DNA of 64,000 nucleotides. It comes from an archaeon. GTDB taxonomy: Archaea > Nanobdellota > Nanobdellia > Pacearchaeales > GW2011-AR1. Made by a program: the position numbers and the translations under genes. The first letter of the stretch is position 1. Each line of letters opens with the position of its first letter. The notes beneath the pieces were generated by a model. That model was not told the DNA's origin. It saw nothing but the letters and a program-made list of their open reading frames with translations, and ran no database searches. Location: positions 201,903 to 265,902 of the forward strand of contig JAYONY010000001.1 of assembly GCA_038121585.1 (NCBI GenBank). Direction: 5' to 3'. Below, one piece after another: positions 10,786 through 54,466 of this stretch.

Positions 10786-11496
10786 ATGAATAAAAAAGAA
10801 TTTACAAAAAGAGTGATTGAATCCCAAAAAGAGCTTACAATAATTACCAAAAGTAAAAAAGAAATTATTGTGAAGGCAAAACGCGGACCTTCAAAGCCCA
10901 CAAAAATCCCTTTAGAAATGAATAACGAACTCGCATTCTTCATTGCAGCAATAATTGGAGATGGCCACTTAAAGAAATCAAAGTATCAAACAGTTTTCGA
11001 GGTACAAGATAAAAAACTTGTTTTGAGAATGCAAGAAATTTGTAAGAAAAATTTCAACAGAATTTTTTCAATTAATGAACGAATAAATAAGGAAAAGAAA
11101 TATTTTGTTTTATACATCGATAGCAAGGCAATTCAAAATTATCTTAATTATGCATTAGAAATTCCAACTGGAAAGAAAAGCCATCTAGTAAAAGTACCTA
11201 ATATAGTTCAGAAGGGTTCAAAATCAATCAAGATATCATTTCTACAAGGAATTTTTGCCACAGAAGGAGGAAATCGAAGGAGAGGATATGGGGTTTCAAC
11301 AGCAAGCAAACAATTGTGGAACGATTTAGTAAAACTATTAGAAGATTTGAAGATCACTGTTAAGACAGATATTTGGACGCACAAAAAGTATAAAAGGGAA
11401 TATTATGGATTAGTATTTAGAAAGGAGTTCCTTTCTAAACTAAGCGGGGATACCGAAGCGGTCAAACGGGATAGGTTTAGGACCTATTGTGCTTAG
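10786..11496 (+). CDS. Free-standing double-motif LAGLIDADG homing endonuclease-like protein
   Basis: 236 aa. Motifs LAFFIAAIIGDGHL and ISFLQGIFATEGG. The last 53 nt, including the stop TAG, lie inside tRNA-Leu. Confidence 0.75.
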   Translation: MNKKEFTKRVIESQKELTIITKSKKEIIVKAKRGPSKPTKIPLEMNNELAFFIAAIIGDGHLKKSKYQTVFEVQDKKLVLRMQEICKKNFNRIFSINERINKEKKYFVLYIDSKAIQNYLNYALEIPTGKKSHLVKVPNIVQKGSKSIKISFLQGIFATEGGNRRRGYGVSTASKQLWNDLVKLLEDLKITVKTDIWTHKKYKREYYGLVFRKEFLSKLSGDTEAVKRDRFRTYCA

Positions 11497-11528
11497 TGCC
11501 TACCTAGGTTCGAATCCTAGTCCCCGCA
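11444..11528 (+). tRNA. tRNA-Leu (anticodon TAG)
   Basis: Hand-folded. Acceptor GCGGGGA/TCCCCGC. Anticodon arm ATAGG-TTTAGGA-CCTAT. Long variable arm. T arm CTAGG-TTCGAAT-CCTAG. Discriminator A. Confidence 0.85.
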
Positions 11529-11745: not shown

Positions 11746-13719
11746 CTAAATCTGGCCGTTAATATCTGTTTTGACGAGATACACCTCTCCCCCGCAAGTA
11801 GTCGTACATTCAACTGCAGTACCCACACCAACGTATTTTCCAGCATCAACAAACCCACCCATAAAAATAGAGTCGTATACTGAACCAGAAGTTGGATGAT
11901 ACTCTTCAACCCATTCAAGTGCTCGTGTTGCACCATCAATTTTCATAATGATTGCTCGTTCAGGAGATGTTGCTTCAGAAAAACCAAATAGAATGAAGTC
12001 CTCACCATCATAATCAAATTCAAGCCCTATATACTCTTCAGGTAGCGAATACGTTTCTGACCACAGAAAATTTCCACTTGCATCCCAGGCAATCAATTCC
12101 AAACCATCAGGGGATTCATCATATCCAAGCACTACAACATCACCATTTACTCCAGGGAGCTGCAGTATATCAAGCGCGAGGAAATCATCTGAATTGTATT
12201 GTACTGACGGTTGTGCAACCCCTGATGCAGCATTGATTCGAATCCAAGCAGGATAATATGCAGACGTGCCTACATCAGAAGTGACACCTGTAACAAGAAT
12301 ATCTCCATTCGAAGCCTCTCGAAGAGAAATAGTGAGATCGTCCTCGCCAGGAGTAATATCATACTCATTTTCCCAATCTATTTGTGGCTGATTAGTTACA
12401 GGATCTACACTTACTTTTTCAACAAAGAAATTTTCATTTGTTACACTACTCATAAAGCCAGTTACTACAATATCACCATTGCTTAAGAGTATAAGATCAT
12501 GAATAGTTTCAAATCCAATAGTGCTACCAACTTGTTGCTCCCATTCAATAATCTGCCCTGTTGAATCAAATTTCAAAATAAGCAATGCATCAGGCGTTTG
12601 AGATTGATCAATTACGGTTGCAACATACCCTCCATCAGACAATTGTGCAACTCCGCCAGAAAAATATCCGACAATAATAGACCCAAATGATACAGCACTT
12701 GAAGGAACAGATTCCCACTCAAACACTCCCGCTCCTGAAAACTTAACAAGCCTAAAGAGCTGTTGTGAACCACGAGTTAATACAACATAGCCCCCGTCAG
12801 CAGTACTAGCAACCGCAAGTCCAAAATCATCTGCAATTGAACCATACGTTGTTTCAAATGTCCCACCAATACATCCTTCATCAAATAACCCATCAGCATC
12901 ATCATCTAGCGAGTTACACATTTCATCCACTCCAGGACTTATTTCAGCAGTTGAGGTAAAGTCAGAATTGTATGTTGGTGCAATCGTAAGTGGTGGCTGT
13001 CCTGAAATAGGGAATAAGTGGAGAAGCAGCGTTATTGCATCTGCAATATTGACAGTGTTATCATTGTTTGTATCTCCTGCGTCAACACATTCTGCTGCAT
13101 ATGCATCAAATGGCGGGACAAAGAGAGTATTGAGGATAAAGATTGCGTCTCCGATATTTCTCGTACCGCTAAGATCTACATCTCCTCGAATAAAGGTTGC
13201 TGCAGGTCCAGTACATACGCTCGCGAGCGTTCCTAACCCTCCGGGCCCGAGTTGAATGCCAGTGTATTCTGTAGGTACTTCATCAATAAGCTGGTTTCGG
13301 CGAATAAGCGAGGATTCTAAGTCTTGCATGAGCTCTAGGAGTGCAACGCCATCGTACACGTCTGTTGTGCCGTCTTGGTTCACGTCTCGTTCATATGCTG
13401 GCAAGTCTGAGATAGTGAGTGAAGCATAGGTTGTATCAACTGCTTGTAGTAAGTATACTGCGTCAGCAACGGTTAACTCACCGTTTCCATCAACATCCCC
13501 TAACACACCCGTTGTCTCACCGCTTATTTTCGGTTCTTCTTTCGTCGTTTCAGGCGTTAATTGCGTTCTTGAATCCTCTTTTGTTGCAGTCGTGCGTTCC
13601 GGCGCGAGTGCCGTGTCAGTGCCAACATTCGTTACTGTTACAACATACCCAATTGCAAGCCCCACGACGGTAATAGCTGCGATTACAACTACGATACCAC
13701 TCATCCCTCTTGTTTCCAT
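11746..13719 (-). CDS. Secreted protein with two dockerin-like modules and beta-propeller-like repeats
   Basis: 657 aa. N-terminus METRGMSGIVVVIAAITVVGLAIG. EF-hand/dockerin repeats DVDGNGELTVADAVYLL, DVNQDGTTDVYDGVALL, GDVDLSGTRNIGDAIFIL, GDTNNDNTVNIADAITLL. Recurring (S/A)DGGYV / SNGDI(V/L)VTG repeats. Confidence 0.7.
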   Translation of the reverse strand: METRGMSGIVVVIAAITVVGLAIGYVVTVTNVGTDTALAPERTTATKEDSRTQLTPETTKEEPKISGETTGVLGDVDGNGELTVADAVYLLQAVDTTYASLTISDLPAYERDVNQDGTTDVYDGVALLELMQDLESSLIRRNQLIDEVPTEYTGIQLGPGGLGTLASVCTGPAATFIRGDVDLSGTRNIGDAIFILNTLFVPPFDAYAAECVDAGDTNNDNTVNIADAITLLLHLFPISGQPPLTIAPTYNSDFTSTAEISPGVDEMCNSLDDDADGLFDEGCIGGTFETTYGSIADDFGLAVASTADGGYVVLTRGSQQLFRLVKFSGAGVFEWESVPSSAVSFGSIIVGYFSGGVAQLSDGGYVATVIDQSQTPDALLILKFDSTGQIIEWEQQVGSTIGFETIHDLILLSNGDIVVTGFMSSVTNENFFVEKVSVDPVTNQPQIDWENEYDITPGEDDLTISLREASNGDILVTGVTSDVGTSAYYPAWIRINAASGVAQPSVQYNSDDFLALDILQLPGVNGDVVVLGYDESPDGLELIAWDASGNFLWSETYSLPEEYIGLEFDYDGEDFILFGFSEATSPERAIIMKIDGATRALEWVEEYHPTSGSVYDSIFMGGFVDAGKYVGVGTAVECTTTCGGEVYLVKTDINGQI

Positions 13720-13751
13720 TGACTGACTATATCAAAGTTACTTTATATTAG

Positions 13752-14051
13752 TTACCGTGATGCTATTACCTGTAATGCCGCTACATCTAAAGAATCAACT
13801 ACGCAATCACCGTTTACGTCTGCTTCGCGATAATTAATGATTGCGCGTTCTCGTGCTAAGTATTGCGTTAGAAGTGTTGCGTCATCTAGCGTTACTTCCC
13901 CGTCTGAATTAATATCTCCATCGCCTTCTGAACAATCGGGAGATAACGCAATTCGTTCTAATCGTGTGGATGTAACATACGTGAATCCCAAAACGAGCAC
14001 TATCCCCAAAATTATAATTGCGATTTTATAGCTAAGATGGAGTTGCTTCAT
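13752..14051 (-). CDS. Small membrane-anchored dockerin-module protein
   Basis: 99 aa. TM IAIIILGIVLVLGF followed by one dockerin pair: GDINSDGEVTLDDATLLTQYL and DVNGDCVVDSLDVAALQ. Confidence 0.65.
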   Translation of the reverse strand: MKQLHLSYKIAIIILGIVLVLGFTYVTSTRLERIALSPDCSEGDGDINSDGEVTLDDATLLTQYLARERAIINYREADVNGDCVVDSLDVAALQVIASR

Positions 14052-14088
14052 GATACTAAGGGTACGACGAGGTTTTTAACAATTGTGA

Positions 14089-17000
14089 CTAATCAGCTTG
14101 TGTCAATTCCCGAGTGTCTGCATTAAAGCGATAGTTCTCTGCAAAGAAATATATGAACCCGTCTTCTTCTGGATGTATAAAATTACTAGGAAATATTTCC
14201 CAATTGGCCTCTTCTCGAATTATTGCCATAGTACCATCATCGCTCCAGAACTTCCAAAAGCCAAGTTCGTACCAGCTAAAGTCTTTTTCAATAGTGACTT
14301 CGTTGGGCCCTTGCTCGATATAATACCCCGTGTATTCCCCATCCTCAAAAATAGCAAGACTAGTACTTACTTCAATCCCATTACCAGTTATACCGTCTGC
14401 ATTTCCTTCTGAAGGTGCATTGTCTGATGAATCTTCTGACGTACTGCTTGACTCAGACGTTACCGCTACCGCTCCAAGGGATTTTGCGTGGAATCGGTCT
14501 GTTATAACTGCGTACACATCACCGATAAGGAGGTTGCGTGCTGCTACATGTTCTTGTAAGATAACCCCTCCAAGCCTGAGCTGTATGGTGTCGAGGATCA
14601 CTTCATAATCGGCGAGTGAAAATGTTTCGGGAGTGCGTATAGCATACAAGTCTGAGCGGAGTTCATCGATTTGTCCGTACACAATGTTTGGATCTACTGC
14701 TGCGGCTCGCTTATCAAGTTCTGATCGCTGTATTGCCTGGAGTTCGCTGAGTGTTTGGTTTTTGAGCCCTTCAGTTATTTTTTGGTTTGAACTCAGCGCG
14801 TCATCAACACTACGCTTGTCAAGCCAGCAGGTTACGGTATCATCACCACAATACCCTACATCAACATAACGCGTTGGGTCTGTTGCACTACCCGGATTTA
14901 CGTTTGAACAGATACGCACTATTCCTTGTTCGAAGACTTGCGGATTCACAAGTTCTTCTACTGCTTGTTGCGGATTAAGCGTGAGCGGTACATTAGTTGG
15001 TTGTAAGGTTGGCCCTGAGATACATTCTTGTTCTGACGTAATATCTGCATTCGTGAGTTCTTCAGCTACGAATGCATCACGCAGTTGCTCGATTGCAAAA
15101 CTAGTAGTTACTTGTTCGAACCCACATTCTTCGACCCCATTTATACTCACGCATAATTGCTGGTAACCTGATGGTAGGGTAAGGTCTCTGCTTTCAGTTG
15201 CGAATTCTCCGCGTGGAATAAATCCTGATGCCACACTTGCCGTTGGGTTAATACCAAACGTTCCTCCTTGTGGCGGATCTTTCAAGTACACTTGATAGTT
15301 TACCCCTTGATCATCTCCAGCAAAGATGTGATAGAATACTTTGTAGCGTGATGTTGGAGGAGGTATTGCATCTGAAAACGGTGAACTACTAAAGTAGGCA
15401 TGGAATTGATGCGGACTGTCTGGCTCTATGAGTGCTTGGAAGTCTGCTCCGATAGGGAAACTTCCGGAGATAAACCCTTGGCAGAGCGGTGAGCCTGCCT
15501 CTTCTATTGAGCGAACATTATAGGCTGAGATTGCATTGACGGCATATTCTTGCGTGAAGAAATCAACTGAGTTTTCAACATTTTGAATTACTGCACTGCC
15601 AGTAGCATATTCTCCGCCACCTCGTGCACCGCTAAATCCTGAAAAGAGCCGTGGCACTACGATTTCTGCAAGTGATATTGCTGGTTCCCAAAAGAGCTTA
15701 CACGTATTTACAGAAGTGATTTCATCACAAATACCTGTGAGTTGTCCAGTATCAATACTTTCTTGTAAACACGCTCGGTGTGACTCAAGGATTGAAGTGT
15801 ATCCCTGAATTCCTGCGTGAATACCGCTTAAACATACGGGGACGTACACTCCTTCGTTAATATTTGGCAAGCATAAGAGTGCTCCTCCAACAATCCCTGT
15901 TCGTACGACGTCTGCTACTTGATAATTACCTCCAAAGTCACATCGTGATGGCGGGCAGATGACAGGATCACATGCGTTGAAGAGGAGTTGGCACTCGCCT
16001 GGACTCATAAATTCCTGACATGCTGTTTTACTCACAGCATTTGCTGGTGTTCCACGCCTGAGTTGTTCATCAAAAATTGAGATGAATTCGTTACCGTACT
16101 GTTGTGCTGCTTCGATAAGTGCTGATTTTGCATCATGAATGATTTGTGATGATTTTGTCGCACTTAAGCCAAAAACTTGCCCATTATCTGAAATACCTAC
16201 ATCAACTCGTTGACAAGGGTCTTCATCACCGATAAGCCCGTTTGGCCCCACGTTACAAATCTTAAATGATCGAGGCTCTCCTGCTTCTGTATAACTCGCA
16301 ATATTACTTCCTACCCCGATAATAGGTTCGACTTTTACATAATACCCTCGTTGAAAGTCGAAAGGTACAAGTGCAGGTAACCCTTCATACGGTGCTGACT
16401 CAAAATATTTCACTTCTCGGCTACTTGCTTTTATAGGGTACTGGTACGTGTCGGAGGGAACATCCTGAAATCCAGAAATACCAAAATCATTAATGAATTC
16501 CTGTACGTTTTGTGATTGACTGCCAGTAGGTGCAAAACTTTCTGTTAGTACAATATCTCCGTTTTCTGCCCGTTCATAATAATAGATTTCTTGCGCTTGA
16601 AGCACTCCGTCTGCTCGTGTTCCGAGTACTGCAAAACTTTCTGGCACGCTACCATCTCCGAGTGCTCTCCCGGATACGAAGATGATACCATCACTGCTAC
16701 CGCTGTACGGTGCATTAGTTCCTGAATAGACGATAGTGTCTCCGTTTGCGATTTGCCCACTTGACCCAATAGCATATACTTTACCGATTGCTGGCATTGC
16801 ATTACGAGCTGTTGCCCCGATAGATGCAACTTGGAGTGGTCCAATGCCTTCTGAAGCCCCTCGTGCTTGTTCGAGCTCTTCAAATATTGATTGTCGTTCT
16901 TCTACTTTTGTTTGTACTTCTGAGAATAAGGCTTGTGATCGTGCAGTGTAGGTGCTCCCTTGCCCTTGCATACACAGCTCCATGTCCATTGCGCGCAGAT

Positions 17001-19419
17001 CAGCATAACTAAAGGCTGATAAGTCCAAATTTCCAAGGTTATTGATAAACTCATTACCTCCAGCACCTCCATACGTGTTTATGAGTACGGTTCGATAGGC
17101 TGCTTTCGCATCTTCCACATTTACTCGAGTGTTTAGAAATTCATTAGTGGTGATTTCCCCGCTTGCTTCGACTGAGCTTATTCGATCATTAACTGCTTCA
17201 ATACATCCTTGCCGTGCGTTGACTTCATTTTCTATAGCGCCAGAGTTTGCATTCAAACAAGAAGTTACGGTGTTGTATTCTCCTTGATTAACGAGTTCTT
17301 GACATTGTTGACTCCATCCGTCAGTTCCTTGCATGGTTTGTTGTCGAGCAAGTGCTTCTCCACTGAGCCCTGCTAGCAAGTTTTTCAAAGTGAGAACACC
17401 CATAGTTGCAAAACAAGCTGCTTTGTATCCTGTTACAATGTTACCAAGATTTTCTTCAACGCTTTGCCATTGGTCGAGTGTTTCGTCTAAGTTAGCGATT
17501 CGTTCTGCTGCTCGTGCAGGGTTGAGTTGAATGTCTCGTTGTTCAATACCTATACCTACTGAAAATTCAACTTCTGTGCTGAGACTGCCTGATGAAGTTT
17601 CAATATGGAGTTTTGCGATTTCACTGAAATCAACGTCTCGTAAATGAAGTGCTGAGCCACAGAGTGTTGGAGGATTTGCCTGATTCGCAGTGAGTGTTCG
17701 TTCAGTTTTCGTCCCGTCAGCACACGTTGTTCGAACACTCACACGTGTTTCAGATACTATACGAGTAACCTCAAGGAGCCCATTAGTTGTTTGCTCACCG
17801 TCATCTTCTGCTACTTCTACGCGTAGTGCCCCCCAATCAAAAACTCCTTTCGACCGCTCTTCAGGTACGCTAATACTTGTTAATTGGAGTATCTGATACT
17901 CATTATCTAGAAAGACACTTTGAGCTGCATCTGCCAGATTTATCTTATTGAGCCGTGCTATTTCGAGTAAATAATGAGCGGTATCTGGATGAGTTGGGTA
18001 AAGCTCTGCATGAAGTTCCATGAGTTCTACTTGCGTGCTTTGTTTTGCGAGTATTTGTGCTAAGAGTATCGCATTCGCAAGCCCTTGTTGTCCGAACGGA
18101 TCATCTTCTGACGTTCTGCGCTCATTAGTGTAGTCTTCTGCCAAGTCAGTGTATTGTTGTTTGGTTAGTGAAAAGTAGGTCTCTACATTTTCTTCTTTAT
18201 TACTATAATCTGCTTCAAAGAGAGATTGTTGATTATTCACATATATTTCATTGAGAAGCACAGGCAGTTGTAAAGTTCCCTTTTCAATTACTGCCACATT
18301 ACCCGTTATGCCAAGGATTTCCCACCCGTCATCTTGCCCATTATCATCTGTCACGAGCGTGACAGTATCTCCGATTTCAAGTGGTGTAACTCCGAGTGTG
18401 AGTTCAAGTTGCTTAGCACCACATTGTACTTCTGCAGTCCCACCCCGAGTTCCTAGAGCGTTTATAGTTGTGACGCGACACTTATTATTCAAAAACCTGC
18501 TTCCTTCTGTGAGTTGGTATACGTCATCGTTAACACGAATTGTGGCGAGTTTATCTGCTCGTTGCAATCCATCGTATACTACACTCATCCTTCCTCTACA
18601 ATACTGTCCTGGAACATAAATAGGGGTTGAGAGTTGTCCTCGATTTACCGATCGTGTTGCGACAGGATTATTATTCTGATCAAAGATTGTCACGCTTGCC
18701 TGATTTGCATCTGCACTGTTTAGCTTGAGCGCGTAATCCCCTTGCCAAAAACTACTTTGGTATTTGTTGTTAAAGAAGTCATCTTCGTCCTGTACGCTAA
18801 GTAAAAATTCTGCCCGTCCAACACCAAAAGTGTTTGCTGCCTGATAGTCTATCTGGCCAGTGAGTGATAATTCTAAAACTTCAGGAGAGAGTGCTTCATT
18901 AGGTTGCCGCTTGAGTACGACTACTACATATCCGATATTGTCAATGTACGGGCTTCCGGTGAGTTGTGTTGTTGAGCGAATTGCTGCTCGTGCTGGTTGA
19001 AACCCAATACTCCGCACTTCTGGCGGGAGGTCTCCTGTGAATCGAATATTTTTTACTTGTTGAATGTCTATGAGTGGGTTAAGTTTGAGTCCGTCTACCT
19101 TACAAAATACTGGCACGTCTTGTTCTGCTAAGAGTGAGCTTGAAACTACTGCCGGTTCACACCCGAGCGGAGAAAGTTGTAAGAGAAGGTCTGTTCGTGC
19201 TTCACATTGGTCGGCATCACCAAGCGTTGGCCAATAGACTGATGCATCAGCACCATATACTGATGAGGCACTTGCAAATGACCCGGTACTCACGATGCGT
19301 GCGGTACCTGTCCGACTACCTGTTCCGTACCCAAAAGATGTTTGTGTTGTTGAGACTTGTGCATACACACTTCCTAGGAGCATGCACGCTAAGAGTGCTA
19401 CTACAAATAATCGTTTCAT
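14089..19419 (-). CDS. Giant secreted protein (1776 aa), unknown family
   Basis: Uninterrupted 5.3 kb ORF. Sec-type signal MKRLFVVALLACMLLGSVYAQ. ATG overlaps the upstream stop (ATGA at 19416-19419). Cys-rich segment around residues 1130-1260 (CQEFMSPGECQLLFNACDPVICPPSRCDF..). Confidence 0.8.
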   Translation of the reverse strand: MKRLFVVALLACMLLGSVYAQVSTTQTSFGYGTGSRTGTARIVSTGSFASASSVYGADASVYWPTLGDADQCEARTDLLLQLSPLGCEPAVVSSSLLAEQDVPVFCKVDGLKLNPLIDIQQVKNIRFTGDLPPEVRSIGFQPARAAIRSTTQLTGSPYIDNIGYVVVVLKRQPNEALSPEVLELSLTGQIDYQAANTFGVGRAEFLLSVQDEDDFFNNKYQSSFWQGDYALKLNSADANQASVTIFDQNNNPVATRSVNRGQLSTPIYVPGQYCRGRMSVVYDGLQRADKLATIRVNDDVYQLTEGSRFLNNKCRVTTINALGTRGGTAEVQCGAKQLELTLGVTPLEIGDTVTLVTDDNGQDDGWEILGITGNVAVIEKGTLQLPVLLNEIYVNNQQSLFEADYSNKEENVETYFSLTKQQYTDLAEDYTNERRTSEDDPFGQQGLANAILLAQILAKQSTQVELMELHAELYPTHPDTAHYLLEIARLNKINLADAAQSVFLDNEYQILQLTSISVPEERSKGVFDWGALRVEVAEDDGEQTTNGLLEVTRIVSETRVSVRTTCADGTKTERTLTANQANPPTLCGSALHLRDVDFSEIAKLHIETSSGSLSTEVEFSVGIGIEQRDIQLNPARAAERIANLDETLDQWQSVEENLGNIVTGYKAACFATMGVLTLKNLLAGLSGEALARQQTMQGTDGWSQQCQELVNQGEYNTVTSCLNANSGAIENEVNARQGCIEAVNDRISSVEASGEITTNEFLNTRVNVEDAKAAYRTVLINTYGGAGGNEFINNLGNLDLSAFSYADLRAMDMELCMQGQGSTYTARSQALFSEVQTKVEERQSIFEELEQARGASEGIGPLQVASIGATARNAMPAIGKVYAIGSSGQIANGDTIVYSGTNAPYSGSSDGIIFVSGRALGDGSVPESFAVLGTRADGVLQAQEIYYYERAENGDIVLTESFAPTGSQSQNVQEFINDFGISGFQDVPSDTYQYPIKASSREVKYFESAPYEGLPALVPFDFQRGYYVKVEPIIGVGSNIASYTEAGEPRSFKICNVGPNGLIGDEDPCQRVDVGISDNGQVFGLSATKSSQIIHDAKSALIEAAQQYGNEFISIFDEQLRRGTPANAVSKTACQEFMSPGECQLLFNACDPVICPPSRCDFGGNYQVADVVRTGIVGGALLCLPNINEGVYVPVCLSGIHAGIQGYTSILESHRACLQESIDTGQLTGICDEITSVNTCKLFWEPAISLAEIVVPRLFSGFSGARGGGEYATGSAVIQNVENSVDFFTQEYAVNAISAYNVRSIEEAGSPLCQGFISGSFPIGADFQALIEPDSPHQFHAYFSSSPFSDAIPPPTSRYKVFYHIFAGDDQGVNYQVYLKDPPQGGTFGINPTASVASGFIPRGEFATESRDLTLPSGYQQLCVSINGVEECGFEQVTTSFAIEQLRDAFVAEELTNADITSEQECISGPTLQPTNVPLTLNPQQAVEELVNPQVFEQGIVRICSNVNPGSATDPTRYVDVGYCGDDTVTCWLDKRSVDDALSSNQKITEGLKNQTLSELQAIQRSELDKRAAAVDPNIVYGQIDELRSDLYAIRTPETFSLADYEVILDTIQLRLGGVILQEHVAARNLLIGDVYAVITDRFHAKSLGAVAVTSESSSTSEDSSDNAPSEGNADGITGNGIEVSTSLAIFEDGEYTGYYIEQGPNEVTIEKDFSWYELGFWKFWSDDGTMAIIREEANWEIFPSNFIHPEEDGFIYFFAENYRFNADTRELTQAD

Positions 19420-21287
19420 GAGAAACTCACCTCCACAACTCCCCCTTCAAGTGCAGCATAGTTTTGTTGTAATTGTTCTAAACTGTTTGGCGTTGGGAGA
19501 CCTTCAACATCTAAAACAACAGTTCCTTGTGCAAGATCAGTTGCTAGTATAAAGGTTATTGTACTACCACCGCCTTTAAGCGCGTATTCAACGTCAGTTG
19601 CTGGAATTTCTACATTGAAACATTCTTCTTCTGTTGCCCCAAAGACTCCTGCTATCCCTCCTGCTGCGACATCAGTACAGTAGCGATGTTGTGTTGCTGG
19701 AATAGTTATTCCTGACGCTGCATACACAAATACTGAAACATCATATTCCCCTTCATGAAGCGTTACACTTTCTAGTTCAGGAAGTGATGCGGTAACAACG
19801 TTTCTACCATCATCAAAACTAATCACTGCCGAACCGCTTAAGGACTGCCCATCAACAAGGACGGATACATCAACAGGATATTCTTTGCGTAAAATAATAT
19901 CTACTTCTCCGGGTTCGTTAGATGAGTATTGGAGGGCGGTTTCCGCAAATCCTTCTGCTGATACGACGAGTTCACCATTAATACATTGTGGAATTCCTCC
20001 GGAGTATACTGCTTCGCTACCCACTAGCTCCGTTGACCCGAGCGTGCATCGACTATCAAAGCAGGAGTAGGTTACAAGTGCACCCTCCACGGGAGCGAGT
20101 TGCTGATCATACACTCGAGCAGTTAGTTCCCCATTATAAAACTGGCACGCATCTACTTCTGGATTATCGAGTAAGCTTTGAATTTCAGCCTCTCGAGGAA
20201 CATTATTGTCAAGTATAACTGCGAGAGGGAACTGGAAGATTTCAGTCCCGCGAGTTACTTGGACCATAACAGGGAATCGTACATCCCACACAAAGTGATA
20301 CGGTACATAACAAAAGCCCATGATACCCATGCCTGATTGTGTCCCTACAGGGTCTGCTATCATTATTTCATTCGTTGCAGGCGTTACTTCAGTAATGCTT
20401 GGCCACCTTGGAGAGTAGAGCACTTGCACACTCGCATCTGTTAGCGTGTACCCAAGATCCACTATGAAATAATCGTCTTCTACATCATCAAGAATATACG
20501 CATTACCAGCTATTTTTATTGCTCCAAAGTTTGTTGCGAGTGCTTCATGCAGTTTAGTCACTTCATCTCGTGTTTGCCATATTTCAGGACTACACGATAC
20601 GGAAACACCATCAACAGGTACATGATTGCGCAGAGTATCAACAGCATACGATTCTAAAAATGCAGTTTCAAGTTCTTCTTCATGAATATCCCGTGCTATT
20701 TCATAGAGTGCACCTAGAGAACTTTCAACTGTTACTTCATGCCGTGTTTTGCGAGCGCTTCGCCCTTCTCGTTGAGTTACGAGTGCTCCGTTAACGACTA
20801 TATCAACTGCTTCATCATGTATTGCTGCACTGACTGATGGGCTAGCAGGTAATGAAATATAGAAGTCATTAAAGTAAAACGGGGTAAACTCACATTCTTG
20901 GATTCGTTGCGCTACGTACTCTTCTAAATGTTGTTCCATTTCGCTTTTTGTAGGCGCTTGTTCTACAAAGAAATTATTTCCTGTAACATATGACCAATAC
21001 GGTACTGGCGTCCCCATAAAGTTGAGGTGCGAGGAGAACGGGGCAAATTCACTACCTGGTACGTAGTCGCCCAATTCTATGCGTCCTCCTTGCACTCCCA
21101 TCACCTCTATTCCCTCTTCTGTTGCTGTTTGTATACAGCCTAAATATGATGTGTAAATTGGTGCAAATTCAGGGTCTATTGTTGTCTCAAAGAGCGATTC
21201 ACGAAACGCGTAGACGACTAGAATACTTCCTACAATTACGAGTGCGAGGATAATAAATCCTGTAGCAAGCCCTCGTTTAGCTACCAC
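19416..21287 (-). CDS. Membrane-anchored/secreted 623 aa protein, unknown family
   Basis: GTG start at 21287. N-terminus (M)VAKRGLATGFIILALVIVGSILVVYAF is class III signal-like. Translationally coupled to the giant gene. Confidence 0.75.
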   Translation of the reverse strand: MVAKRGLATGFIILALVIVGSILVVYAFRESLFETTIDPEFAPIYTSYLGCIQTATEEGIEVMGVQGGRIELGDYVPGSEFAPFSSHLNFMGTPVPYWSYVTGNNFFVEQAPTKSEMEQHLEEYVAQRIQECEFTPFYFNDFYISLPASPSVSAAIHDEAVDIVVNGALVTQREGRSARKTRHEVTVESSLGALYEIARDIHEEELETAFLESYAVDTLRNHVPVDGVSVSCSPEIWQTRDEVTKLHEALATNFGAIKIAGNAYILDDVEDDYFIVDLGYTLTDASVQVLYSPRWPSITEVTPATNEIMIADPVGTQSGMGIMGFCYVPYHFVWDVRFPVMVQVTRGTEIFQFPLAVILDNNVPREAEIQSLLDNPEVDACQFYNGELTARVYDQQLAPVEGALVTYSCFDSRCTLGSTELVGSEAVYSGGIPQCINGELVVSAEGFAETALQYSSNEPGEVDIILRKEYPVDVSVLVDGQSLSGSAVISFDDGRNVVTASLPELESVTLHEGEYDVSVFVYAASGITIPATQHRYCTDVAAGGIAGVFGATEEECFNVEIPATDVEYALKGGGSTITFILATDLAQGTVVLDVEGLPTPNSLEQLQQNYAALEGGVVEVSFS

Positions 21288-21417
21288 GTTTCTTTGACCC
21301 CTTTTTGATTTTTTCTTGGATTAATTTGATAAGTTCCGTATTGATATCCTTGTCAATTACTTGTTTAAACTGTTCCCACATGGCTTCGTCTTCGATTAAT
21401 AGTAAGTACTTCTTCAT
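21277..21417 (-). CDS. Small ribbon-helix-helix-like protein (46 aa), first gene of the giant-protein operon
   Basis: Not in the track (<60 aa). MKKYLLLIEDEAMWEQFKQVIDKDINTELIKLIQEKIKKGSKKRGS has a beta-alpha-alpha pattern. The stop overlaps the GTG start of the next gene by 11 nt. Confidence 0.5.
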   Translation of the reverse strand: MKKYLLLIEDEAMWEQFKQVIDKDINTELIKLIQEKIKKGSKKRGS

Positions 21418-21467
21418 GAATGCCCCAATTCCTTGCATCTCTTACGCATGTTCCCTATTTAAAGTTT

Positions 21468-21522
21468 CTTAGTAATTTAGTAAATTAATAACATACTTAC
21501 TAAGTAACTTACTAAGTAAATT
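21468..21522. promoter_or_regulatory. Operator-like repeats in a divergent intergenic region
   Basis: CTTAGTAA (21468-21475) is the inverted copy of TTACTAAG, which sits inside the tandem 12-mers ACTTACTAAGTA x2 (21495-21518). AGTAAATT occurs twice. Confidence 0.45.
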
Positions 21523-22139: not shown

Positions 22140-22210
22140 TGGCCCCGCGCAGAATCGAACTGCGGACTCCTCCACGTCAAGGAGATGGTTTACCACTAGC
22201 CTACGGGGCC
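22140..22210 (-). tRNA. tRNA-Val (anticodon GAC)
   Basis: Hand-folded on the minus strand. Acceptor GGCCCCG/CGGGGCC. Anticodon loop TTGACGT. T arm CGCAG-TTCGATT-CTGCG. One mismatch in the D stem. Confidence 0.8.
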
Positions 22211-22422: not shown

Positions 22423-23295
22423 ATGCGACAACGAAACGAGGACATGGACCCCCTGTACAAGAAAGAACTCGAACAATTTACTTCTTATTTATCATTTGAG
22501 GAAGAATCTAAACGCGGTAAAATACTTCGTGATGAAACCCTCCCCGTCAACGTTCGTAAAAAGGCTGGTGCTGAACTTGTAGAAGCCAATTTACGCTTGG
22601 TACCTTTTATTGCGAGACGATATGAAAATCGAGGAGTTGCAAAAGACGATTTAATTGGGGAAGGAAATGAAGGACTAGTATATGCAACTACGAAATACGA
22701 TGGGAGGACAAAATTTGGTACGTACGCTGGCCGTTGGGTTAAACAACGCATAGGCCGTGCAATCATTGAAGGGACTGGCCCAATCCATATTCCTGAAACA
22801 ACCCTCCTCCTAGCTAAAAAATTTACCGAAGAAGATATCAAAAAACCAATTGAAGTGCTTGCAAAAGAGTATGATGTAAAACCGGGGAGAATAGCATGTG
22901 CTCTTGATGCATACGCCGTTTTACAAAGAAAAACTCATTCACTAACACGCCAAGATACTGATGGATCCAAAGGCTACAACGCTGATTTTGAAATCCCTTC
23001 TAGAGAAATTGATACGCTTGATGAATCAATTGAGAGTAAGCGATTACTCAAAAAATTGCCTAAGCGAGAAAGAAAAGTGATTGAAATGTATTATGGATTT
23101 ACACCTATGCCCCCTGTTCAAAGAAGACCTCACAGAAGAAACTGTAAAACAGGTCAATTACTCGAAGAACATTCTGTTCGGCGTGAAAAAGCAACCCTTG
23201 AAAATATTGGAAAAAAAGTAGGAATTAGCAGAGAATGGGTCCGTAGAATCACTATTGATGTACCACCAACCCTTCTAGAGTCGCTTAACGAATAA
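22423..23295 (+). CDS. Bacterial-type sigma-70 family factor homologue
   Basis: 290 aa. Region 2: [59 protein letters not shown]..IHIP (compare RpoD [58 protein letters not shown]..IRIP). Region 4: [30 protein letters not shown]. Confidence 0.85.
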   Translation: [290 protein letters not shown]

Positions 23296-30096: not shown

Positions 30097-30738
30097 TTGG
30101 TAGTATCAAAAAGACCCATAAAAGACAGATACTTAGAAGCACTATGTGAAAGTGTAGAGCATGCAACTCCCGATTGGGAACGAATAGATAAACAATTGAC
30201 AATACGCTATAACCTTCCGCCTGAATCTAGAGATAACCTTGGACATGTAAAAGGTAGAGCTGCAGAGTGCATTACATACAATGCATTTGAAGCAGTCAGA
30301 GAAAAATACCCTGACAGAATCCGCATTGGAATTGAACAATCAAAAGAAGTAAACCCAGAAAGGCTTGCAGTTCCCGATAAGCTTGGAAGTGTGAAAGTTT
30401 ACAACACTGCAGAAAAATGCGTCATTAATGAAATTGACATGGTAACACGAACACTTCACCCAACCGTTTGGGAGATTAAATCGGGAACATTTAGAAATAA
30501 AAGAGGAAAGACCCGAGATGGGATAAAACAAAAAAGTGTGAATATGCGCTCAGCTCCTATCAAAGCTTACTTTGAAACACATGGTGTTCGCTCTGCGACA
30601 ATACTACCAAAGGATATGATTGATCCTCAAAAATACGAGACGCAACTAGAATTCATTTCACGAGGAGGATTACTTGTCCCGTTCTACACCACTCACGAAC
30701 AATACGAACAAGAAGTACGAGAAAATCTTATGTCTTAA
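30097..30738 (+). CDS. Hypothetical protein with a possible PD-(D/E)xK nuclease motif
   Basis: 213 aa, non-ATG start. GRAAE ... NEIDMV ... WEIKSG spacing resembles the E..D..ExK restriction-endonuclease-like fold. Tentative. Confidence 0.4.
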   Translation: MVVSKRPIKDRYLEALCESVEHATPDWERIDKQLTIRYNLPPESRDNLGHVKGRAAECITYNAFEAVREKYPDRIRIGIEQSKEVNPERLAVPDKLGSVKVYNTAEKCVINEIDMVTRTLHPTVWEIKSGTFRNKRGKTRDGIKQKSVNMRSAPIKAYFETHGVRSATILPKDMIDPQKYETQLEFISRGGLLVPFYTTHEQYEQEVRENLMS

Positions 30739-36542: not shown

Positions 36543-36791
36543 CTAATCATACACGTTTTTTCTATGACCAATTCTTAATACAATGAGTTTGTTGTTTGAC
36601 ACTACAACATCGATTACTGCGCGGTAGTTGTGTATTCTGAGCCGCCACAATTTCTGTCCTGATAAGCGCTTCAAATAGCGATAGGGATTTTCTCGTATTG
36701 AATAGAGTTTCCTCAAAATCAGAGTTGCATCTTTTTTAGGTACTTTTTTCAAATACTTCTTTGCAATATCAGTTAATTCAATAGAGAACAT
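36543..36791 (-). CDS. relE: RelE/ParE-family toxin
   Basis: 82 aa. KRLSGQKLWRLRIHNYRAVIDVVVSNNKLIVLRIGHRKNVY is the classic RelE/ParE C-terminal pattern. Confidence 0.75.
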   Translation of the reverse strand: MFSIELTDIAKKYLKKVPKKDATLILRKLYSIRENPYRYLKRLSGQKLWRLRIHNYRAVIDVVVSNNKLIVLRIGHRKNVYD

Positions 36792-36792
36792 C

Positions 36793-37029
36793 TTACATGA
36801 GAGAGATGCCGAGCTCCTCCGCTACCGATTCGATAGAGTGAACTTTTCCTTTTCGAACATTATCGAGCCCTTCCTGTATTTCTTTAATTTCTGCATCACT
36901 CAAGACTTCTTCATCCACGTTATCAAGCAAGTTATTCAAAACATCATCGTACGATTGCCGAGAAAAAGCCCGTAGCGCTTTAAGCCGTGCTAACGTCTCA
37001 ACATTAATTTGTATCGTTGTTTTCTGCAT
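36793..37029 (-). CDS. RHH-type antitoxin
   Basis: 78 aa. N-terminal beta-alpha-alpha TTIQINVETLARLKALRAFSRQSYDDVLNNLLD. Its stop lies 1 nt before the toxin start. Confidence 0.6.
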   Translation of the reverse strand: MQKTTIQINVETLARLKALRAFSRQSYDDVLNNLLDNVDEEVLSDAEIKEIQEGLDNVRKGKVHSIESVAEELGISLM

Positions 37030-50700: not shown

Positions 50701-51309
50701 ATGACACTTACTGATGAACAAATTGCTGAGGCTAAGAAACAATTGTCTGAGCAAATAGCACACTTGCCTGATGATCAAAAAGCTCAGGCACAGCAACAGA
50801 TTGATAGTATGAGCCCTGAGGCGATTGAAAAGATGGTTGCAGAGCAAGCGCAGGGAAATTCCCAACAAGTGTTTCGATTAATTGTACAAGGTAAAATCCC
50901 TGCGAAGGTAATTGCAGATATTGATGATGCGATTGCAGTGCTTTCTACTAAATCAATTTCTAAAGGGCACTCAGTGATAATTCCTAAAACTGCAGTTACT
51001 AAGTCTTCTGATATGCCAGCGAGTGTGTTTGAACTTGCGAAAGTGATTTCTGCGAAAGTAATTGAGGTGTTGCAAGCGCATGGTTCTGAGATTCAAACAC
51101 AATTTGCATTTGGTGAATTAGTAGTGCATGTTATTCCAGTATTTGATAAGCCAGTTTCTATTAATTCTCAACCGACTGATGCTGATGAGAAGGAGCTTGA
51201 GGAATTAGCTAAGAAGCTGTTTATTCCTGCTGCTAAAAAAGAACCTGACATAATTACCCAGCCTGAGAAGGATGAGACAGTGTTCAAATTACGTCGTAAA
51301 GTTCCTTAG
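50701..51309 (+). CDS. HIT-like protein with a degenerate histidine triad and a helical N-terminal extension
   Basis: Start at ATG 50701. GHSVIIPK and GELVVHVIPVF align to the HIT GHxLVIPK / HxHxHxIP motifs, but only one His of the triad is retained. Confidence 0.5.
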   Translation: MTLTDEQIAEAKKQLSEQIAHLPDDQKAQAQQQIDSMSPEAIEKMVAEQAQGNSQQVFRLIVQGKIPAKVIADIDDAIAVLSTKSISKGHSVIIPKTAVTKSSDMPASVFELAKVISAKVIEVLQAHGSEIQTQFAFGELVVHVIPVFDKPVSINSQPTDADEKELEELAKKLFIPAAKKEPDIITQPEKDETVFKLRRKVP

Positions 51310-52145
51310 AAGAGTGCGAAACGACCAAAAGAATACCACGACCAGATAAGTACGAATAAACTAATGAGGAATGTTGGGGTGAAGGGGATTCCTCGTTTTA
51401 TCCATACGTTCTTTTTGTGTTTGAGCAAGAATAAAATTTCTTTTTTTGTGAGCCCATGAACGCTTGGTTCAATCGTTGTTTTCCCCACTGTTACTGCTCG
51501 GTCAAGCCAGTCTCCTTCTGTTAGCTTTGTAGGTGCTACGCGCACGATCATTATTCCTCGTTCGAGCGCGCGAGCATACATGACAAGGAGTGGGAGTAAG
51601 CTAAAGAGCACTACCCAAAAACCATAGGGAAAGAGAGGTGCTCCTGATGCGAGTACAATTTCGAGTCCGAGTCCGACGAAGAACATTGCAATAAATAATT
51701 TGCGAAATGCACTCCATTCTTTCTTGAATGCGTTAGTAAATCCTTTTGTGTTGCGTGCGACGAGCACCCCACTATATACAAGAGTGTAGAGAATGCCTGC
51801 AACAAAAAAGACGAGGAGGAATGTCAGAGTGATTGTTATGAGGCTGGTTATACTCGTGAAAGGGAGCACTCCCCCGTACCCCATAAGGAGTTTTGCGTCT
51901 CCTCCCGCAAATACTCGTCCGTAATAGAAGAGGTATGCAAGTCCTACAAAAACTCCGACTCCAAGCACCCCGTACCAAAAGAAGTAAGGCACCTCATAGA
52001 CGAGTGCATAAAATCCTCGATAGGCAAGTGTGAATGCGATTAACGTGAAATTAAGCCAGTTAGCGACTTCTGTTGTGCGCATATCCTGCACTACCGCAAA
52101 AAAAGTCCAGATGGCAGCAAGTCCAAATAAAAAATAGTATTCCAC
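51306..52145 (-). CDS. A24-family prepilin/preflagellin peptidase (FlaK/PibD/EppA-like)
   Basis: 279 aa, multi-pass. FAVVQDMRTTEVANW and FAGGDAKLLMGYGGVLPF match the two catalytic Asp motifs of archaeal A24 peptidases. Confidence 0.75.
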   Translation of the reverse strand: MEYYFLFGLAAIWTFFAVVQDMRTTEVANWLNFTLIAFTLAYRGFYALVYEVPYFFWYGVLGVGVFVGLAYLFYYGRVFAGGDAKLLMGYGGVLPFTSITSLITITLTFLLVFFVAGILYTLVYSGVLVARNTKGFTNAFKKEWSAFRKLFIAMFFVGLGLEIVLASGAPLFPYGFWVVLFSLLPLLVMYARALERGIMIVRVAPTKLTEGDWLDRAVTVGKTTIEPSVHGLTKKEILFLLKHKKNVWIKRGIPFTPTFLISLFVLIWSWYSFGRFALF

Positions 52146-54422: not shown

Positions 54423-54466
54423 TATCCCTTATAGAGCGTTCCTAGATTTATAAAGGTTATGCGTTC

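What the first reader, a model, noticed from the sequence alone, without database searches (positions are those of the whole stretch)
11746..21417. 9.7 kb surface operon: RHH-like ORF, 623 aa anchor protein, 1776 aa giant secreted protein, two dockerin-module proteins
All five genes are on the minus strand. Overlaps or gaps between them are tiny: an 11-nt overlap, an ATGA overlap, and gaps of 37 and 32 nt. The 1776 aa and 623 aa proteins carry secretion or anchor N-termini, and I recognise no domain in either. The giant protein has a dense Cys cluster around residues 1130-1260. The last two genes carry dockerin-type EF-hand pairs (D-x-[DN]-x-[DN]-G-x(4-5)-D-x(3)-L): one module on a 99 aa membrane-anchored protein and two on a 657 aa propeller-repeat protein. 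I see no obvious cohesin, so the giant or 623 aa proteins are candidate binding partners. The arrangement looks like a self-contained, cellulosome-style cell-surface complex of unknown function, which is inference.
Basis: partly seen in the sequence, partly recalled or inferred. Interest (0 to 1): 0.75.

Follow-up and report, generated by a model that had tools for sequence, protein, structure and literature searches.

The report
Conserved DPANN surface-protein cassette plus dockerin genes
The five genes are real, but they are two things: a three-gene cell-surface cassette of unknown families (tiny regulator-like protein, pilin-signal-anchored stalk protein, giant cysteine-rich secreted protein) kept together in at least 556 species of tiny DPANN archaea, plus two dockerin genes found only in this genome, so it is not a cellulosome.

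Summary
The sequence observation holds: gene coordinates, overlaps, N-terminal signals, Cys cluster and dockerin motifs are as described.

The window is from a DPANN archaeon of the Woesearchaeota/Pacearchaeota group. The conserved unit is three genes, not five:
- a 46-aa protein (63% median identity);
- a ~620-aa protein with an archaeal class III (prepilin-type) signal, a head domain and three beta-sandwich domains;
- a ~1,750-2,800-aa Sec-secreted protein with about 29 invariant cysteines.

This trio is syntenic in all 76 related loci that include upstream flank. Relatives occur in at least 556 species genomes and about 1,000 50%-identity clusters. The two large genes usually overlap by 4 nt. 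An operator-like TTACTWAGTAA array sits against the BRE/TATA in 46 of 47 loci.

No Pfam, NCBIfam, PDB, PHROG or PADLOC family matches the large proteins, and the giant's model has no fold match. Its variable C-terminal tail carries trypsin or lytic-transglycosylase domains in a few homologs.

The dockerin genes appear in 0 of 84 related loci, and no cohesin was found.

Best reading (inferred): a regulated complex of a membrane-anchored stalk and a secreted giant, acting on external or host envelopes. This genome added dockerin proteins downstream.

The parts
21468..21520 (-). Operator-like array of TTACTWAGTAA-type (near-palindromic) repeats directly upstream of the promoter
   Evidence: Sequence read. 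The only exact TTACTWAGTAA matches in the 64-kb window are here. An equivalent array abuts the BRE/TATA in 46 of 47 unique related loci. In 1.54 Mb of loci, at least 58 of 62 motif clusters sit just upstream of the cassette.
21456..21470 (-). BRE/TATA-like promoter element (AAGAAACTTTAAATA), 38 nt upstream of the ATG of the 46-aa gene
   Evidence: the consensus TAAGAAAGnTTT(T/A)TATA is conserved across loci, with a median TATA-to-ATG distance of 38 nt. Promoter function is inferred.
21277..21417 (-). 46-aa conserved small protein (MKKYLLLIEDExLWxxFK..DIN[ST]EI..basic tail); candidate DNA-binding autoregulator, RHH-like by pattern only
   Evidence: Found upstream of the 623-aa homolog by tblastn in 58 loci, median 63% identity. 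It has 12 invariant residues. Synonymous codons vary freely at invariant residues, so it is a real coding gene. No RHH profile hit. hhalign against Arc gives 13% probability, in the expected register.
19416..21287 (-). 623-aa stalk/anchor protein: class III (prepilin-type) signal MVAKRG|LATGF plus a hydrophobic helix (res 1-28), an alpha/beta head (about 40-370) and three beta-sandwich domains (about 385-600); 10 invariant Cys
   Evidence: At least 240 homologs of uniform length, about 620 aa. All 66 N-termini inspected show a leader of variable length, then [KR][GA]|Q, then a hydrophobic stretch. AF2 model pLDDT 87.6. Foldseek matches tandem beta-sandwich stalks: B. anthracis TIE 2e-7, Gram-positive pilins, SlaB 8qox_B 1.2e-5.
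14089..19419 (-). 1776-aa Sec-secreted giant protein with no membrane anchor, acidic, 33 Cys; conserved body of about 1,650 aa plus a variable C-terminal tail
   Evidence: At least 140 homologs at 30-44% identity over about 90% of the length, all named hypothetical. 1,040 representatives at 50% clustering, 902 of them with E <= 1e-30. No Pfam, NCBIfam, PDB, PHROG or PADLOC hit. AF2 of res 421-1620 gave pLDDT 65.9, with no significant Foldseek match in PDB (best E 0.05) or BFVD (best E 5.9e-4 but prob 0.15, TM 0.05).
15700..16020 (-). Cys-rich, most conserved core of the giant (res 1134-1240: 10 invariant Cys, including C-x6-C-x4-C-x4-C), with two conserved Gly-rich hydrophobic segments (res 1168-1185, 1190-1205)
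   Evidence: Invariant columns. Family-averaged hydropathy and Cys positions. AF2 confidence is low here despite high conservation.
14092..14472 (-). Variable C-terminal tail of the giant (res about 1650-1776): Ser/Asp-rich linker plus an aromatic-rich domain of about 95 aa
   Evidence: Conservation falls to 0.13-0.27, and large insertions occur only here. In homologs this tail carries trypsin (P0065, P0068), SLT (P0115) or DUF4347 (P0077) domains.
13752..14051 (-). 99-aa protein: N-terminal TM helix plus one type I dockerin module (res 45-93; window 13773-13919)
   Evidence: Pfam Dockerin_1 42.9 bits, E = 5.5e-11. No counterpart in the 84 related loci.
11746..13719 (-). 657-aa protein: class III-like signal/anchor (METRG|MSG...), two dockerin-like modules (res 73-123 = 13351-13503; res 177-238 = 13006-13191), a MopE-like Cys/Asp motif, and a repeat-rich C-terminal half (propeller-like)
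   Evidence: Pfam Dockerin_1 18.1 bits, below the cut-off, and MopE motif E = 0.021. PDB dockerin match E = 0.01. delta-60 repeat E = 0.0015. Orphan: only weak partial hits elsewhere. Absent from the 84 loci.
51306..52145 (-). Type IV prepilin/preflagellin peptidase (Peptidase_A24), acting in trans; the likely processing enzyme for the class III signals of the 623-aa and 657-aa proteins
   Evidence: Pfam PF01478, E = 3.4e-10, 40.7 bits (cut-off 26.5). It sits next to a cluster of small genes with KRG|Q-type N-termini at 54081-62313.

Best explanation
**What is there.** The locus holds a deeply conserved three-gene surface cassette of Woesearchaeota/Pacearchaeota-type DPANN archaea. Two lineage-specific dockerin genes have been added downstream.

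**How it most likely works.**
1. Shown: a conserved BRE/TATA promoter is flanked by an array of near-palindromic TTACTWAGTAA repeats. Inferred: the co-encoded 46-aa protein binds this array and autoregulates the operon.
2. Shown by sequence: the 623-aa protein carries a class III (prepilin-type) signal, and an A24 peptidase gene is in the window. Inferred: the peptidase cuts the signal after Gly, and the protein stays held by its N-terminal hydrophobic helix. Its head domain then sits on a stalk of three beta-sandwich domains.
3. Shown: the giant is exported with a Sec signal peptide, has no anchor of its own, and its gene overlaps the stalk gene, usually by 4 nt. Inferred: the two are made in fixed ratio, and the stalk protein holds the disulfide-rich giant at the cell surface.
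4. Shown: the roughly 1,650-aa body of the giant is under strong constraint, while its C-terminal tail varies and in some lineages carries a protease or a peptidoglycan lytic transglycosylase. Inferred: the tail is the outward-facing working end, and the complex contacts or attacks external (host or neighbour) cell envelopes rather than forming a passive coat.
5. In this genome, a membrane-anchored dockerin (99 aa) and a protein with two dockerin-like modules and a propeller-like half (657 aa) follow with no obvious terminator. They may be co-transcribed accessories, but they are not part of the conserved machine.
For: **Organism.** Archaeal and DPANN-type: TFIIB and S3Ae in the window; homolog names are Nanoarchaeota, Pacearchaeota and Woesearchaeota.

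**Synteny.**
- The trio is syntenic in 76/76 loci with upstream flank, and the small ORF is detected by tblastn in 58.
- Relatives occur in at least 556 species genomes.
- The neighbourhood is core genome: TFIIB is beside the cassette in 50 loci and S8e in 45.

**Coupling.** The stop of the 623-aa gene overlaps the giant's start by 4 nt in 42/73 unique loci and by 1-14 nt in 58/73.

**Constraint.** Median identity is 35% for the giant, 41% for the 623-aa protein and 63% for the small protein. In the same loci S3Ae is 46% and the Lactamase_B protein 48%.

**Class III signal.**, with the A24 peptidase. Archaeal class III signals on non-pilin surface proteins are established (PMC2910488).

**Stalk fold.**

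**Giant.** Sec signal and no anchor. Accessory hydrolase domains occur only in the C-terminal tail.

**Promoter array.**

**Small protein.** It is a real, constrained coding gene.

**Not viral or defence-related.**
Against: - No direct evidence exists for a 623-aa/giant interaction, for DNA binding by the 46-aa protein, or for any host-directed activity.
- RHH membership failed the profile tests.
- Only 4 of 120 listed homologs carry a recognisable hydrolase in the tail.
- High conservation is unusual for host-recognition proteins.
- Universal presence in a core-genome context fits a housekeeping envelope role (S-layer or envelope biogenesis) equally well.
- The giant's N-terminal 420 residues were never modelled, and the model of the rest has only moderate confidence (pLDDT 65.9).
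Confidence: 0.4

Rival explanations
1. Two-component S-layer (functional analogue of Sulfolobales SlaB/SlaA). The 623-aa protein would be the membrane stalk, and the giant the lattice-forming canopy that covers the whole cell.
For: - Anchor plus large unanchored secreted partner, encoded side by side and translationally coupled.
- Foldseek match of the 623-aa model to SlaB, 8qox_B, E = 1.2e-5.
- Near-universal, core-genome location with a strong conserved promoter.
- Both proteins are very acidic.
- No S-layer protein has been determined experimentally for any DPANN archaeon (bioRxiv 10.1101/2023.10.27.564410).
Against: - The SlaB match is to generic tandem beta-sandwiches that also match Gram-positive pilins.
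- The anchor is an N-terminal class III signal, not a C-terminal TM with a coiled coil.
- The modelled part of the giant is largely helical and Cys-rich rather than a chain of Ig-like domains, and it has no SlaA or other S-layer fold match.
- About 29 cysteines are invariant, and identity is 35-41% across orders. S-layer proteins usually diverge beyond recognition above genus level (bioRxiv 10.1101/2023.10.27.564410).
- The giant has only one N-glycosylation sequon.
- Lytic-enzyme fusions occur in the tail.
- Other genes are annotated as S-layer genes among the top-expressed Woesearchaeota genes (PMC11606122).
Confidence: 0.2
2. One reading: a self-contained cellulosome-style complex. The dockerins of the 99-aa and 657-aa proteins would plug into cohesin-like modules on the giant or the 623-aa protein.
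For: - A genuine type I dockerin in the 99-aa protein, and two dockerin-like modules in the 657-aa protein.
- Same strand, gaps of 37 and 32 nt, and no T-run terminator until after the 657-aa gene.
- In other lineages the giant's tail carries its accessory domains directly. Separate docking modules could be an alternative way to attach cargo.
Against: - No cohesin by Pfam in any of the five proteins.
- No cohesin-type fold: the best match to a scaffoldin chain containing cohesin is E = 0.02, prob 0.47.
- Dockerin genes are absent from 84/84 related loci, while the supposed scaffold is always present.
- The 657-aa protein is an orphan.
- No carbohydrate-active enzymes are present.
- Archaeal dockerins commonly occur without scaffoldins (PMC9012536).
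Confidence: 0.07
3. Type IV pilus tip or minor-pilin adhesin complex. The 623-aa pilin-signal protein would be built into a pilus-like fibre and would carry the giant as a PilY1-like tip adhesin.
For: - A conserved class III signal on the 623-aa protein.
- An A24 peptidase and a cluster of pilin-like genes in the same window.
- A large Sec-secreted non-pilin partner encoded next to a pilin-like gene resembles bacterial pilY1/minor-pilin operons (my own knowledge, not tested).
Against: - The cassette never includes an assembly ATPase, a platform protein or further pilins.
- 620 aa is far larger than structural pilins.
- No PilY1, vWA or propeller signature in the giant.
- Class III signals in archaea also serve non-filament surface proteins (PMC2910488).
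Confidence: 0.13

Closest known systems
SlaA/SlaB two-component S-layer of Sulfolobales (PDB 8qox)
   Same: Adjacent genes encode a membrane-anchored stalk of tandem beta-sandwich domains and a large, unanchored, secreted partner of more than 1,400 aa. The 623-aa model matches SlaB at Foldseek E = 1.2e-5.
   Different: The anchor is N-terminal and of class III signal type, not a C-terminal TM with a coiled coil. The giant has no fold or sequence match to SlaA. It is Cys-rich and unusually conserved. A small regulator-like gene and an operator array are part of the unit.
Archaeal class III signal-peptide surface proteins (pilins, archaellins, bindosome binding proteins) processed by PibD/FlaK-type A24 peptidases
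   Same: [KR]G|Q plus a hydrophobic N-terminus, with a leader of variable length, in all 66 homologs inspected. An A24 peptidase is in the window. Use of this signal by large non-pilin surface proteins is documented (PMC2910488).
   Different: A 620-aa multidomain protein with no Pilin_N/DUF361 profile hit. It is paired with a giant secreted partner rather than with a pilus-assembly operon.
Cohesin-dockerin systems (cellulosomes; non-cellulosomal archaeal dockerins)
   Same: Dockerin_1 module in the 99-aa protein, and two dockerin-like EF-hand pairs in the 657-aa protein.
   Different: No cohesin, scaffoldin or carbohydrate-active enzymes were found. The dockerin genes are not linked to the conserved cassette in any relative. 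This fits the known scatter of orphan dockerins in archaea (PMC9012536).
Ribbon-helix-helix autoregulators (Arc/MetJ/CopG)
   Same: Size (46 aa). The predicted strand-helix-helix pattern, with a DIN[ST]EI helix-2 start resembling Arc's SVNSEI. First gene of the operon. Repeated near-palindromic sites at its own promoter.
   Different: No Pfam or PDB profile hit. hhalign probability is only 13% against Arc and about 1% against CopG. The N-terminal strand is unusually hydrophobic (YLLLI).
Giant surface proteins of other DPANN archaea or ultrasmall symbionts (for example the SPEARE proteins of Nanohaloarchaeota)
   Same: A very large secreted protein in a DPANN genome. Some homologs carry protease domains. 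A role in host contact is proposed.
   Different: No sequence relationship was tested or seen. This family is a tight, self-contained cluster: 902 of 1,040 hits have E <= 1e-30. It has a fixed three-gene context.

Membership tests
Dockerin type I (Pfam PF00404) | Profile match above the gathering score covering both Ca-binding repeats (99-aa protein) | tested here: met
   42.9 bits against a cut-off of 22.9, residues 45-93.
Dockerin type I (Pfam PF00404) | Profile match above the gathering score for the two modules of the 657-aa protein | tested here: inconclusive
   Module 1 scores 18.1 bits, below the cut-off of 22.9. Module 2 matches only solved dockerins, at E = 0.01-0.23. The two modules match each other at about 1e-3. 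The D-x-[DN]-x-[DN]-G motif is present in both.
Cellulosome-type cohesin-dockerin system | A cohesin-bearing partner or scaffoldin | tested here: not met
   No Cohesin hit in the five proteins at E <= 0.1, nor in the other window ORFs scanned. Foldseek on both models gives no cohesin-specific match. The rest of the genome and giant residues 1-420 were not examined.
Cellulosome-type cohesin-dockerin system | Conserved genetic linkage of the dockerin genes with the putative scaffold | tested here: not met
   0 of 84 related loci encode a homolog of either dockerin protein. The closest relative runs straight from the giant gene to TFIIB.
Ribbon-helix-helix superfamily | Profile or structure match to an RHH family | tested here: inconclusive
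   No RHH family among the Pfam hits of 28 members at E <= 10. No PDB RHH hit. hhalign against Arc gives prob 13% in the right register, and against CopG about 1%.
Archaeal class III (type IV prepilin-like) signal peptide proteins | Short charged leader ending in [KR][GA], a cleavage site followed by a hydrophobic stretch of about 20 residues, and an A24 peptidase in the genome | tested here: met
   The motif is present in all 66 homologs inspected, whatever the leader length. Peptidase_A24 lies at 51306-52145. Cleavage itself cannot be tested here.
SlaA/SlaB S-layer | SlaB: beta-sandwich domains plus a coiled coil and a C-terminal TM. SlaA: characteristic multidomain fold. | tested here: not met
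   Only the beta-sandwich part matches (8qox_B, E = 1.2e-5). The anchor is N-terminal. The giant shows no SlaA hit.
Viral or archaeal membrane fusogens (class I-III, fusexins) | Fold match to a known fusion protein | tested here: not met
   PDB: Fsx1 (7p4l) matches only at E = 0.21 over one beta-sandwich. BFVD: no credible match, all TM <= 0.07 over long alignments. No relatives in 2.9 million viral contigs.

The most novel reading that the evidence does not exclude
The giant protein could be the conserved membrane-contact machine of Woesearchaeota/Pacearchaeota: a disulfide-stapled, stalk-mounted protein. Its long helices and two invariant Gly-rich hydrophobic segments (res 1168-1205, and also 661-682) would insert into a partner cell's membrane. 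That would open the pore, bridge or fusion through which these metabolically dependent archaea take up host material. The variable C-terminal hydrolase or adhesion tail would clear or recognise the host wall. This would be a new class of cell-cell fusogen or translocon.
Probability: 0.12. Interest if true: 0.9.

Novelty: new variant of a known kind. Interest (0 to 1): 0.6.

Why it matters
Woesearchaeota and Pacearchaeota are among the most abundant and least understood archaea, and none is in pure culture. How they build their envelope or contact hosts is unknown.

A three-gene surface module present in hundreds of their species is a concrete handle on that question:
- Its gene overlap is conserved.
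- It has its own operator-like promoter array.
- It evolves almost as slowly as a ribosomal protein.
- It matches no described family.

It gives defined targets for cryo-ET labelling, metaproteomics, structure determination and DNA-binding assays. It also shows that the eye-catching dockerin genes are a local add-on rather than the core of the system.

Tried and rejected
1. **Fused model of the 623-aa protein and the giant's N-terminus.** I tried to concatenate the two into one AF2 job. MAFFT aligned the giant homologs against the wrong half, so I abandoned it. The giant's residues 1-420 therefore remain unmodelled.
3. **N-glycosylation sequon depletion.** The giant has 1 sequon against about 13.7 expected, and the family 349 against 665. 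This looked striking, but cytoplasmic proteins of the window show the same roughly 0.5 ratio. It is not a family-specific signal, and shows only that there is no sequon enrichment.
4. **Viral or defence origin.** Rejected: no PHROG or PADLOC hits, no relatives in IMG/VR, no BFVD fold match.
5. **Catalytic triad in the 623-aa head.** The invariant GFCYxPYHF motif was considered from the sequence. The Cys/His spacing does not fit transglutaminase or papain-like cores, and the even number of invariant Cys (10) suggests disulfides instead.
6. **Literature.** Searches for this family found no description.
7. **Exact look-up of the window's giant protein.** No contig is on record.

Full report
**1. 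Checking the observation**

- 657 aa, 11746-13719
- 99 aa, 13752-14051
- 1776 aa, 14089-19419
- 623 aa, 19416-21287 (GTG start)
- a small ORF, 21277-21438

Homologs of the small ORF begin at its Met8, so the conserved start is 21417 and the product is 46 aa. The 11-nt and 4-nt overlaps and the 37-nt and 32-nt gaps are exact.

The giant has only an N-terminal Sec-type signal peptide. The other three proteins have one N-terminal hydrophobic helix each. All are strongly acidic. Ten of the giant's 33 cysteines lie at residues 1134-1240.

Pfam confirms a type I dockerin in the 99-aa protein (42.9 bits, cut-off 22.9). In the 657-aa protein it gives only a sub-threshold hit (18.1 bits). The second module there matches a solved dockerin at E = 0.01, and the two modules match each other at about 1e-3.

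The two large proteins and the small ORF match nothing in Pfam, NCBIfam, PHROGs, PADLOC or the PDB sequences.

**2. Organism and context**

The window encodes TFIIB and ribosomal protein S3Ae, so it is archaeal. Every named homolog of the large proteins comes from Nanoarchaeota, Pacearchaeota or Woesearchaeota MAGs.

**3. What is conserved**

The giant protein has at least 140 homologs at 30-44% identity over about 90% of its length, all annotated as hypothetical.

An exhaustive HMMER search was run with the conserved core (res 990-1560) against 1.84 billion representatives. It found 1,040 proteins, 902 of them at E <= 1e-30. The family is large but tight, with almost no remote relatives. The core always sits at about residue 1,000 of a 1,700-2,800-aa protein.

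In the 84 loci fetched:
- A homolog of the 623-aa protein lies immediately upstream of the giant gene in all 76 loci that include upstream flank.
- The small ORF is detected by tblastn in 58 loci.
- Neither dockerin protein has a counterpart in any locus.

Gene calls on four public contigs show the same order, roughly 45 aa, then 620 aa, then 1,760 aa. Different genes follow downstream. The closest relative (44% identity) runs straight from the giant gene to TFIIB. The 657-aa protein is an orphan in a 5.8-billion-protein search.

The unit is therefore 3 + 2: a conserved trio, plus two genes specific to this lineage.

The trio sits in a conserved core-genome neighbourhood. TFIIB is nearby in 50 loci, S8e in 45 and LSM in 37.

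**4. Strength of constraint**

Measured in the same loci, median identity to the window proteins is:

| Protein | Median identity |
|---|---|
| Giant | 35% |
| 623-aa protein | 41% |
| 46-aa protein | 63% |
| S3Ae | 46% |
| Lactamase_B-fold protein | 48% |
| S8e | 54% |

For extracellular proteins this is unusually slow evolution.

- About 29 cysteines of the giant and 10 of the 623-aa protein are invariant.
- The 46-aa ORF is a real gene. Its invariant residues are encoded by freely varying synonymous codons; Leu5, for example, uses five codons.
- The stop of the 623-aa gene overlaps the giant's start by 4 nt in 42 of 73 unique loci, and by 1-14 nt in 58 of 73. This indicates conserved translational coupling.

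**5. A conserved promoter with an operator-like array (new)**

Upstream of the 46-aa gene the window reads TTTACTTAGTAAGTTACTTAGTAAGT...TTTACTAAATTACTAAGAAACTTTAAATA. The near-palindrome TTACTWAGTAA occurs exactly only here in the 64 kb.

- In 46 of 47 unique related loci, a stretch of about 40 nt of the same TTACT/AGTAA/TAAGT/ACTTA units abuts a conserved TAAGAAAGnTTT(T/A)TATA element, a median of 38 nt before the ATG.
- These pentamers occur 9.4 times in the 53 nt before the BRE-like element, against 0.29 times in distal sequence.
- In 1.54 Mb of loci, at least 58 of 62 such clusters lie just upstream of the cassette.

DNA-level conservation of this kind points to a dedicated sequence-specific regulator. 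The co-encoded, highly conserved 46-aa protein is the obvious candidate; this is inference.

Its pattern (strand MKKYLLLIE, then a helix, then DIN[ST]EI starting a second helix, then a basic tail) resembles ribbon-helix-helix proteins. However, no Pfam or PDB profile supports this. hhalign gives only 13% probability against Arc and about 1% against CopG. 'RHH-like' remains a lead, not a finding.

**6. The 623-aa protein**

All 66 homolog N-termini inspected share one design: a leader of 3 to about 45 residues, ending in [KR][GA], then Q (L in the window protein), then about 20 hydrophobic residues. This is the archaeal class III, prepilin-type signal.

The window itself encodes a Peptidase_A24 (51306-52145, E = 3.4e-10). 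Next to it is a cluster of small genes with KRG|Q N-termini. In archaea such signals are also used by non-pilin surface proteins (PMC2910488).

AF2 with 66 sequences gives a confident model (pLDDT 87.6):
- an N-terminal helix;
- an alpha/beta head (about residues 40-370) with no PDB counterpart;
- three beta-sandwich domains of about 80-90 residues each.

Foldseek matches the sandwich part to tandem-sandwich stalks. The hits are B. anthracis TIE (2e-7), Gram-positive pilins, S. acidocaldarius SlaB (1.2e-5) and transthyretin-like/CnaB domains. A scaffoldin chain containing cohesin appears only at E = 0.02, prob 0.47.

**7. The giant protein**

AF2 of residues 421-1620 with 41 sequences gave moderate confidence (pLDDT 65.9, pTM 0.38). 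The model shows:
- helical bundles, including a 52-residue helix at res 634-685;
- several beta-sandwich or beta-rich domains;
- a low-confidence but extremely conserved Cys-rich region (res 1134-1320).

Foldseek found no significant match in the PDB. The best hit is E = 0.05, to generic sandwiches. BFVD gave no credible match either.

Apart from the signal peptide, the only conserved hydrophobic segments are res 661-682 and the pair 1168-1185/1190-1205.

The C-terminal tail, after about residue 1650, is the variable part. Among the 120 listed homologs, four carry extra Pfam domains, all in this tail:
- trypsin-like peptidase (P0065 res 1749-1914; P0068 res 1788-1929);
- SLT lytic transglycosylase (P0115 res 1645-1720);
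- DUF4347 (P0077).

**8. Interpretation**

*Shown:* a conserved, translationally coupled trio with a conserved promoter array; a class III-signal stalk protein; a Sec-secreted, unanchored, Cys-rich giant with a variable C-terminal end.

*Inferred:*
- The 46-aa protein autoregulates the operon through the array.
- The stalk protein retains the giant at the surface.
- The tail is the distal working end.

Because the tail sometimes carries wall-degrading enzymes, and these archaea are thought to depend on other cells, I favour a contact or attack complex (confidence 0.4).

The main rival is a SlaB/SlaA-like two-component S-layer (0.2).
- In favour: the architecture and the universality.
- Against: the cysteines, the slow evolution, the non-Ig fold, the single sequon and the dedicated regulator. 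Other genes are also annotated as S-layer genes among highly expressed Woesearchaeota genes (PMC11606122). S-layer proteins normally diverge beyond recognition above genus level (bioRxiv 10.1101/2023.10.27.564410).

The remaining probability is for roles I cannot name.

**9. The dockerin genes**

They follow the giant gene with short gaps and no T-run terminator until after the 657-aa gene. Co-transcription in this genome is therefore plausible, although TATA-like sequences precede both genes.

With no cohesin, no conservation and no carbohydrate-active enzymes, they fit the known scatter of non-cellulosomal dockerins in archaea (PMC9012536). Whether they dock onto the giant's tail is untested.

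**10. Novelty and limits**

No paper describing this family turned up, and every database calls the proteins hypothetical. The protein families and the operator array appear undescribed. The general kind, an anchored archaeal surface complex, is known.

Limits of this work:
- The giant's residues 1-420 were not modelled.
- No multimer prediction was possible.
- No expression data were examined.
- Only the 64-kb window of a 421-kb contig was available for the cohesin search.

Noticed in passing
window 22423-23295 (+): A 290-aa sigma-70 family protein (Sigma70_r2 and r4; NCBIfam sigma70-ECF 77 bits against a cut-off of 42.9) in an archaeal genome. It lies about 1 kb upstream of the cassette on the opposite strand. 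Its role with an archaeal RNA polymerase is unclear.
   Followed up: partly
window 51306-52145 (-) and 54081-62313 (-): A type IV prepilin peptidase (Peptidase_A24) sits next to a run of at least seven genes whose products start with a KRG|Q-type class III signal (113-515 aa, no Pfam hits). This is probably a pilus or pseudopilus locus. The 500-aa ORF at 48288-49790 also starts MKRG|AIHLALLVIV.
   Followed up: partly
L003 19931-19985 and L015 21506-21560: A second cluster of the same TTACT/AGTAA repeats lies upstream of another large hypothetical gene (about 970 aa, next to the Lactamase_B gene) in two related genomes. The putative regulator may control more than one surface gene.
   Followed up: no
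window 10786-11496 (+) and tRNA-Leu 11444-11528 (+): A LAGLIDADG-domain ORF (E = 2.3e-11) overlaps the 5' part of a tRNA-Leu gene by about 50 nt. It lies in the roughly 4.8-kb stretch between TFIIB and the giant gene. That stretch also holds the NAD kinase and dockerin genes, and it is absent from the closest relative.
   Followed up: no
many related loci, e.g. L008, L016, L020, L033, L039, L043, L055, L067 (about 100-160 nt upstream of the small-gene ATG): The 3' end of a tRNA gene (…GTTCGATTCTGC…GGCCA) lies directly upstream of the operator array in many genomes. In the window, the nearest is tRNA-Val at 22140-22210, about 620 nt away.
   Followed up: no
window 36543-37029 (-): A ParE-toxin gene (82 aa, E = 1.5e-7) is preceded by a 78-aa DUF7557/VapB-like antitoxin gene. 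This is a type II toxin-antitoxin pair.
   Followed up: partly
window 30735-31955 (-): A 406-aa secreted or anchored protein with a long Pro/Thr/Asp-rich linker and an alginate-lyase-like domain (E = 1.4e-9). A polysaccharide lyase also lies near the cassette in L003/L004.
   Followed up: no
P0115: The homolog carrying the SLT domain is deposited as 'Methanococcoides sp. SA1', on a 569-kb contig. Every other named homolog is from a DPANN archaeon, so that record may be misassigned or mixed.
   Followed up: no
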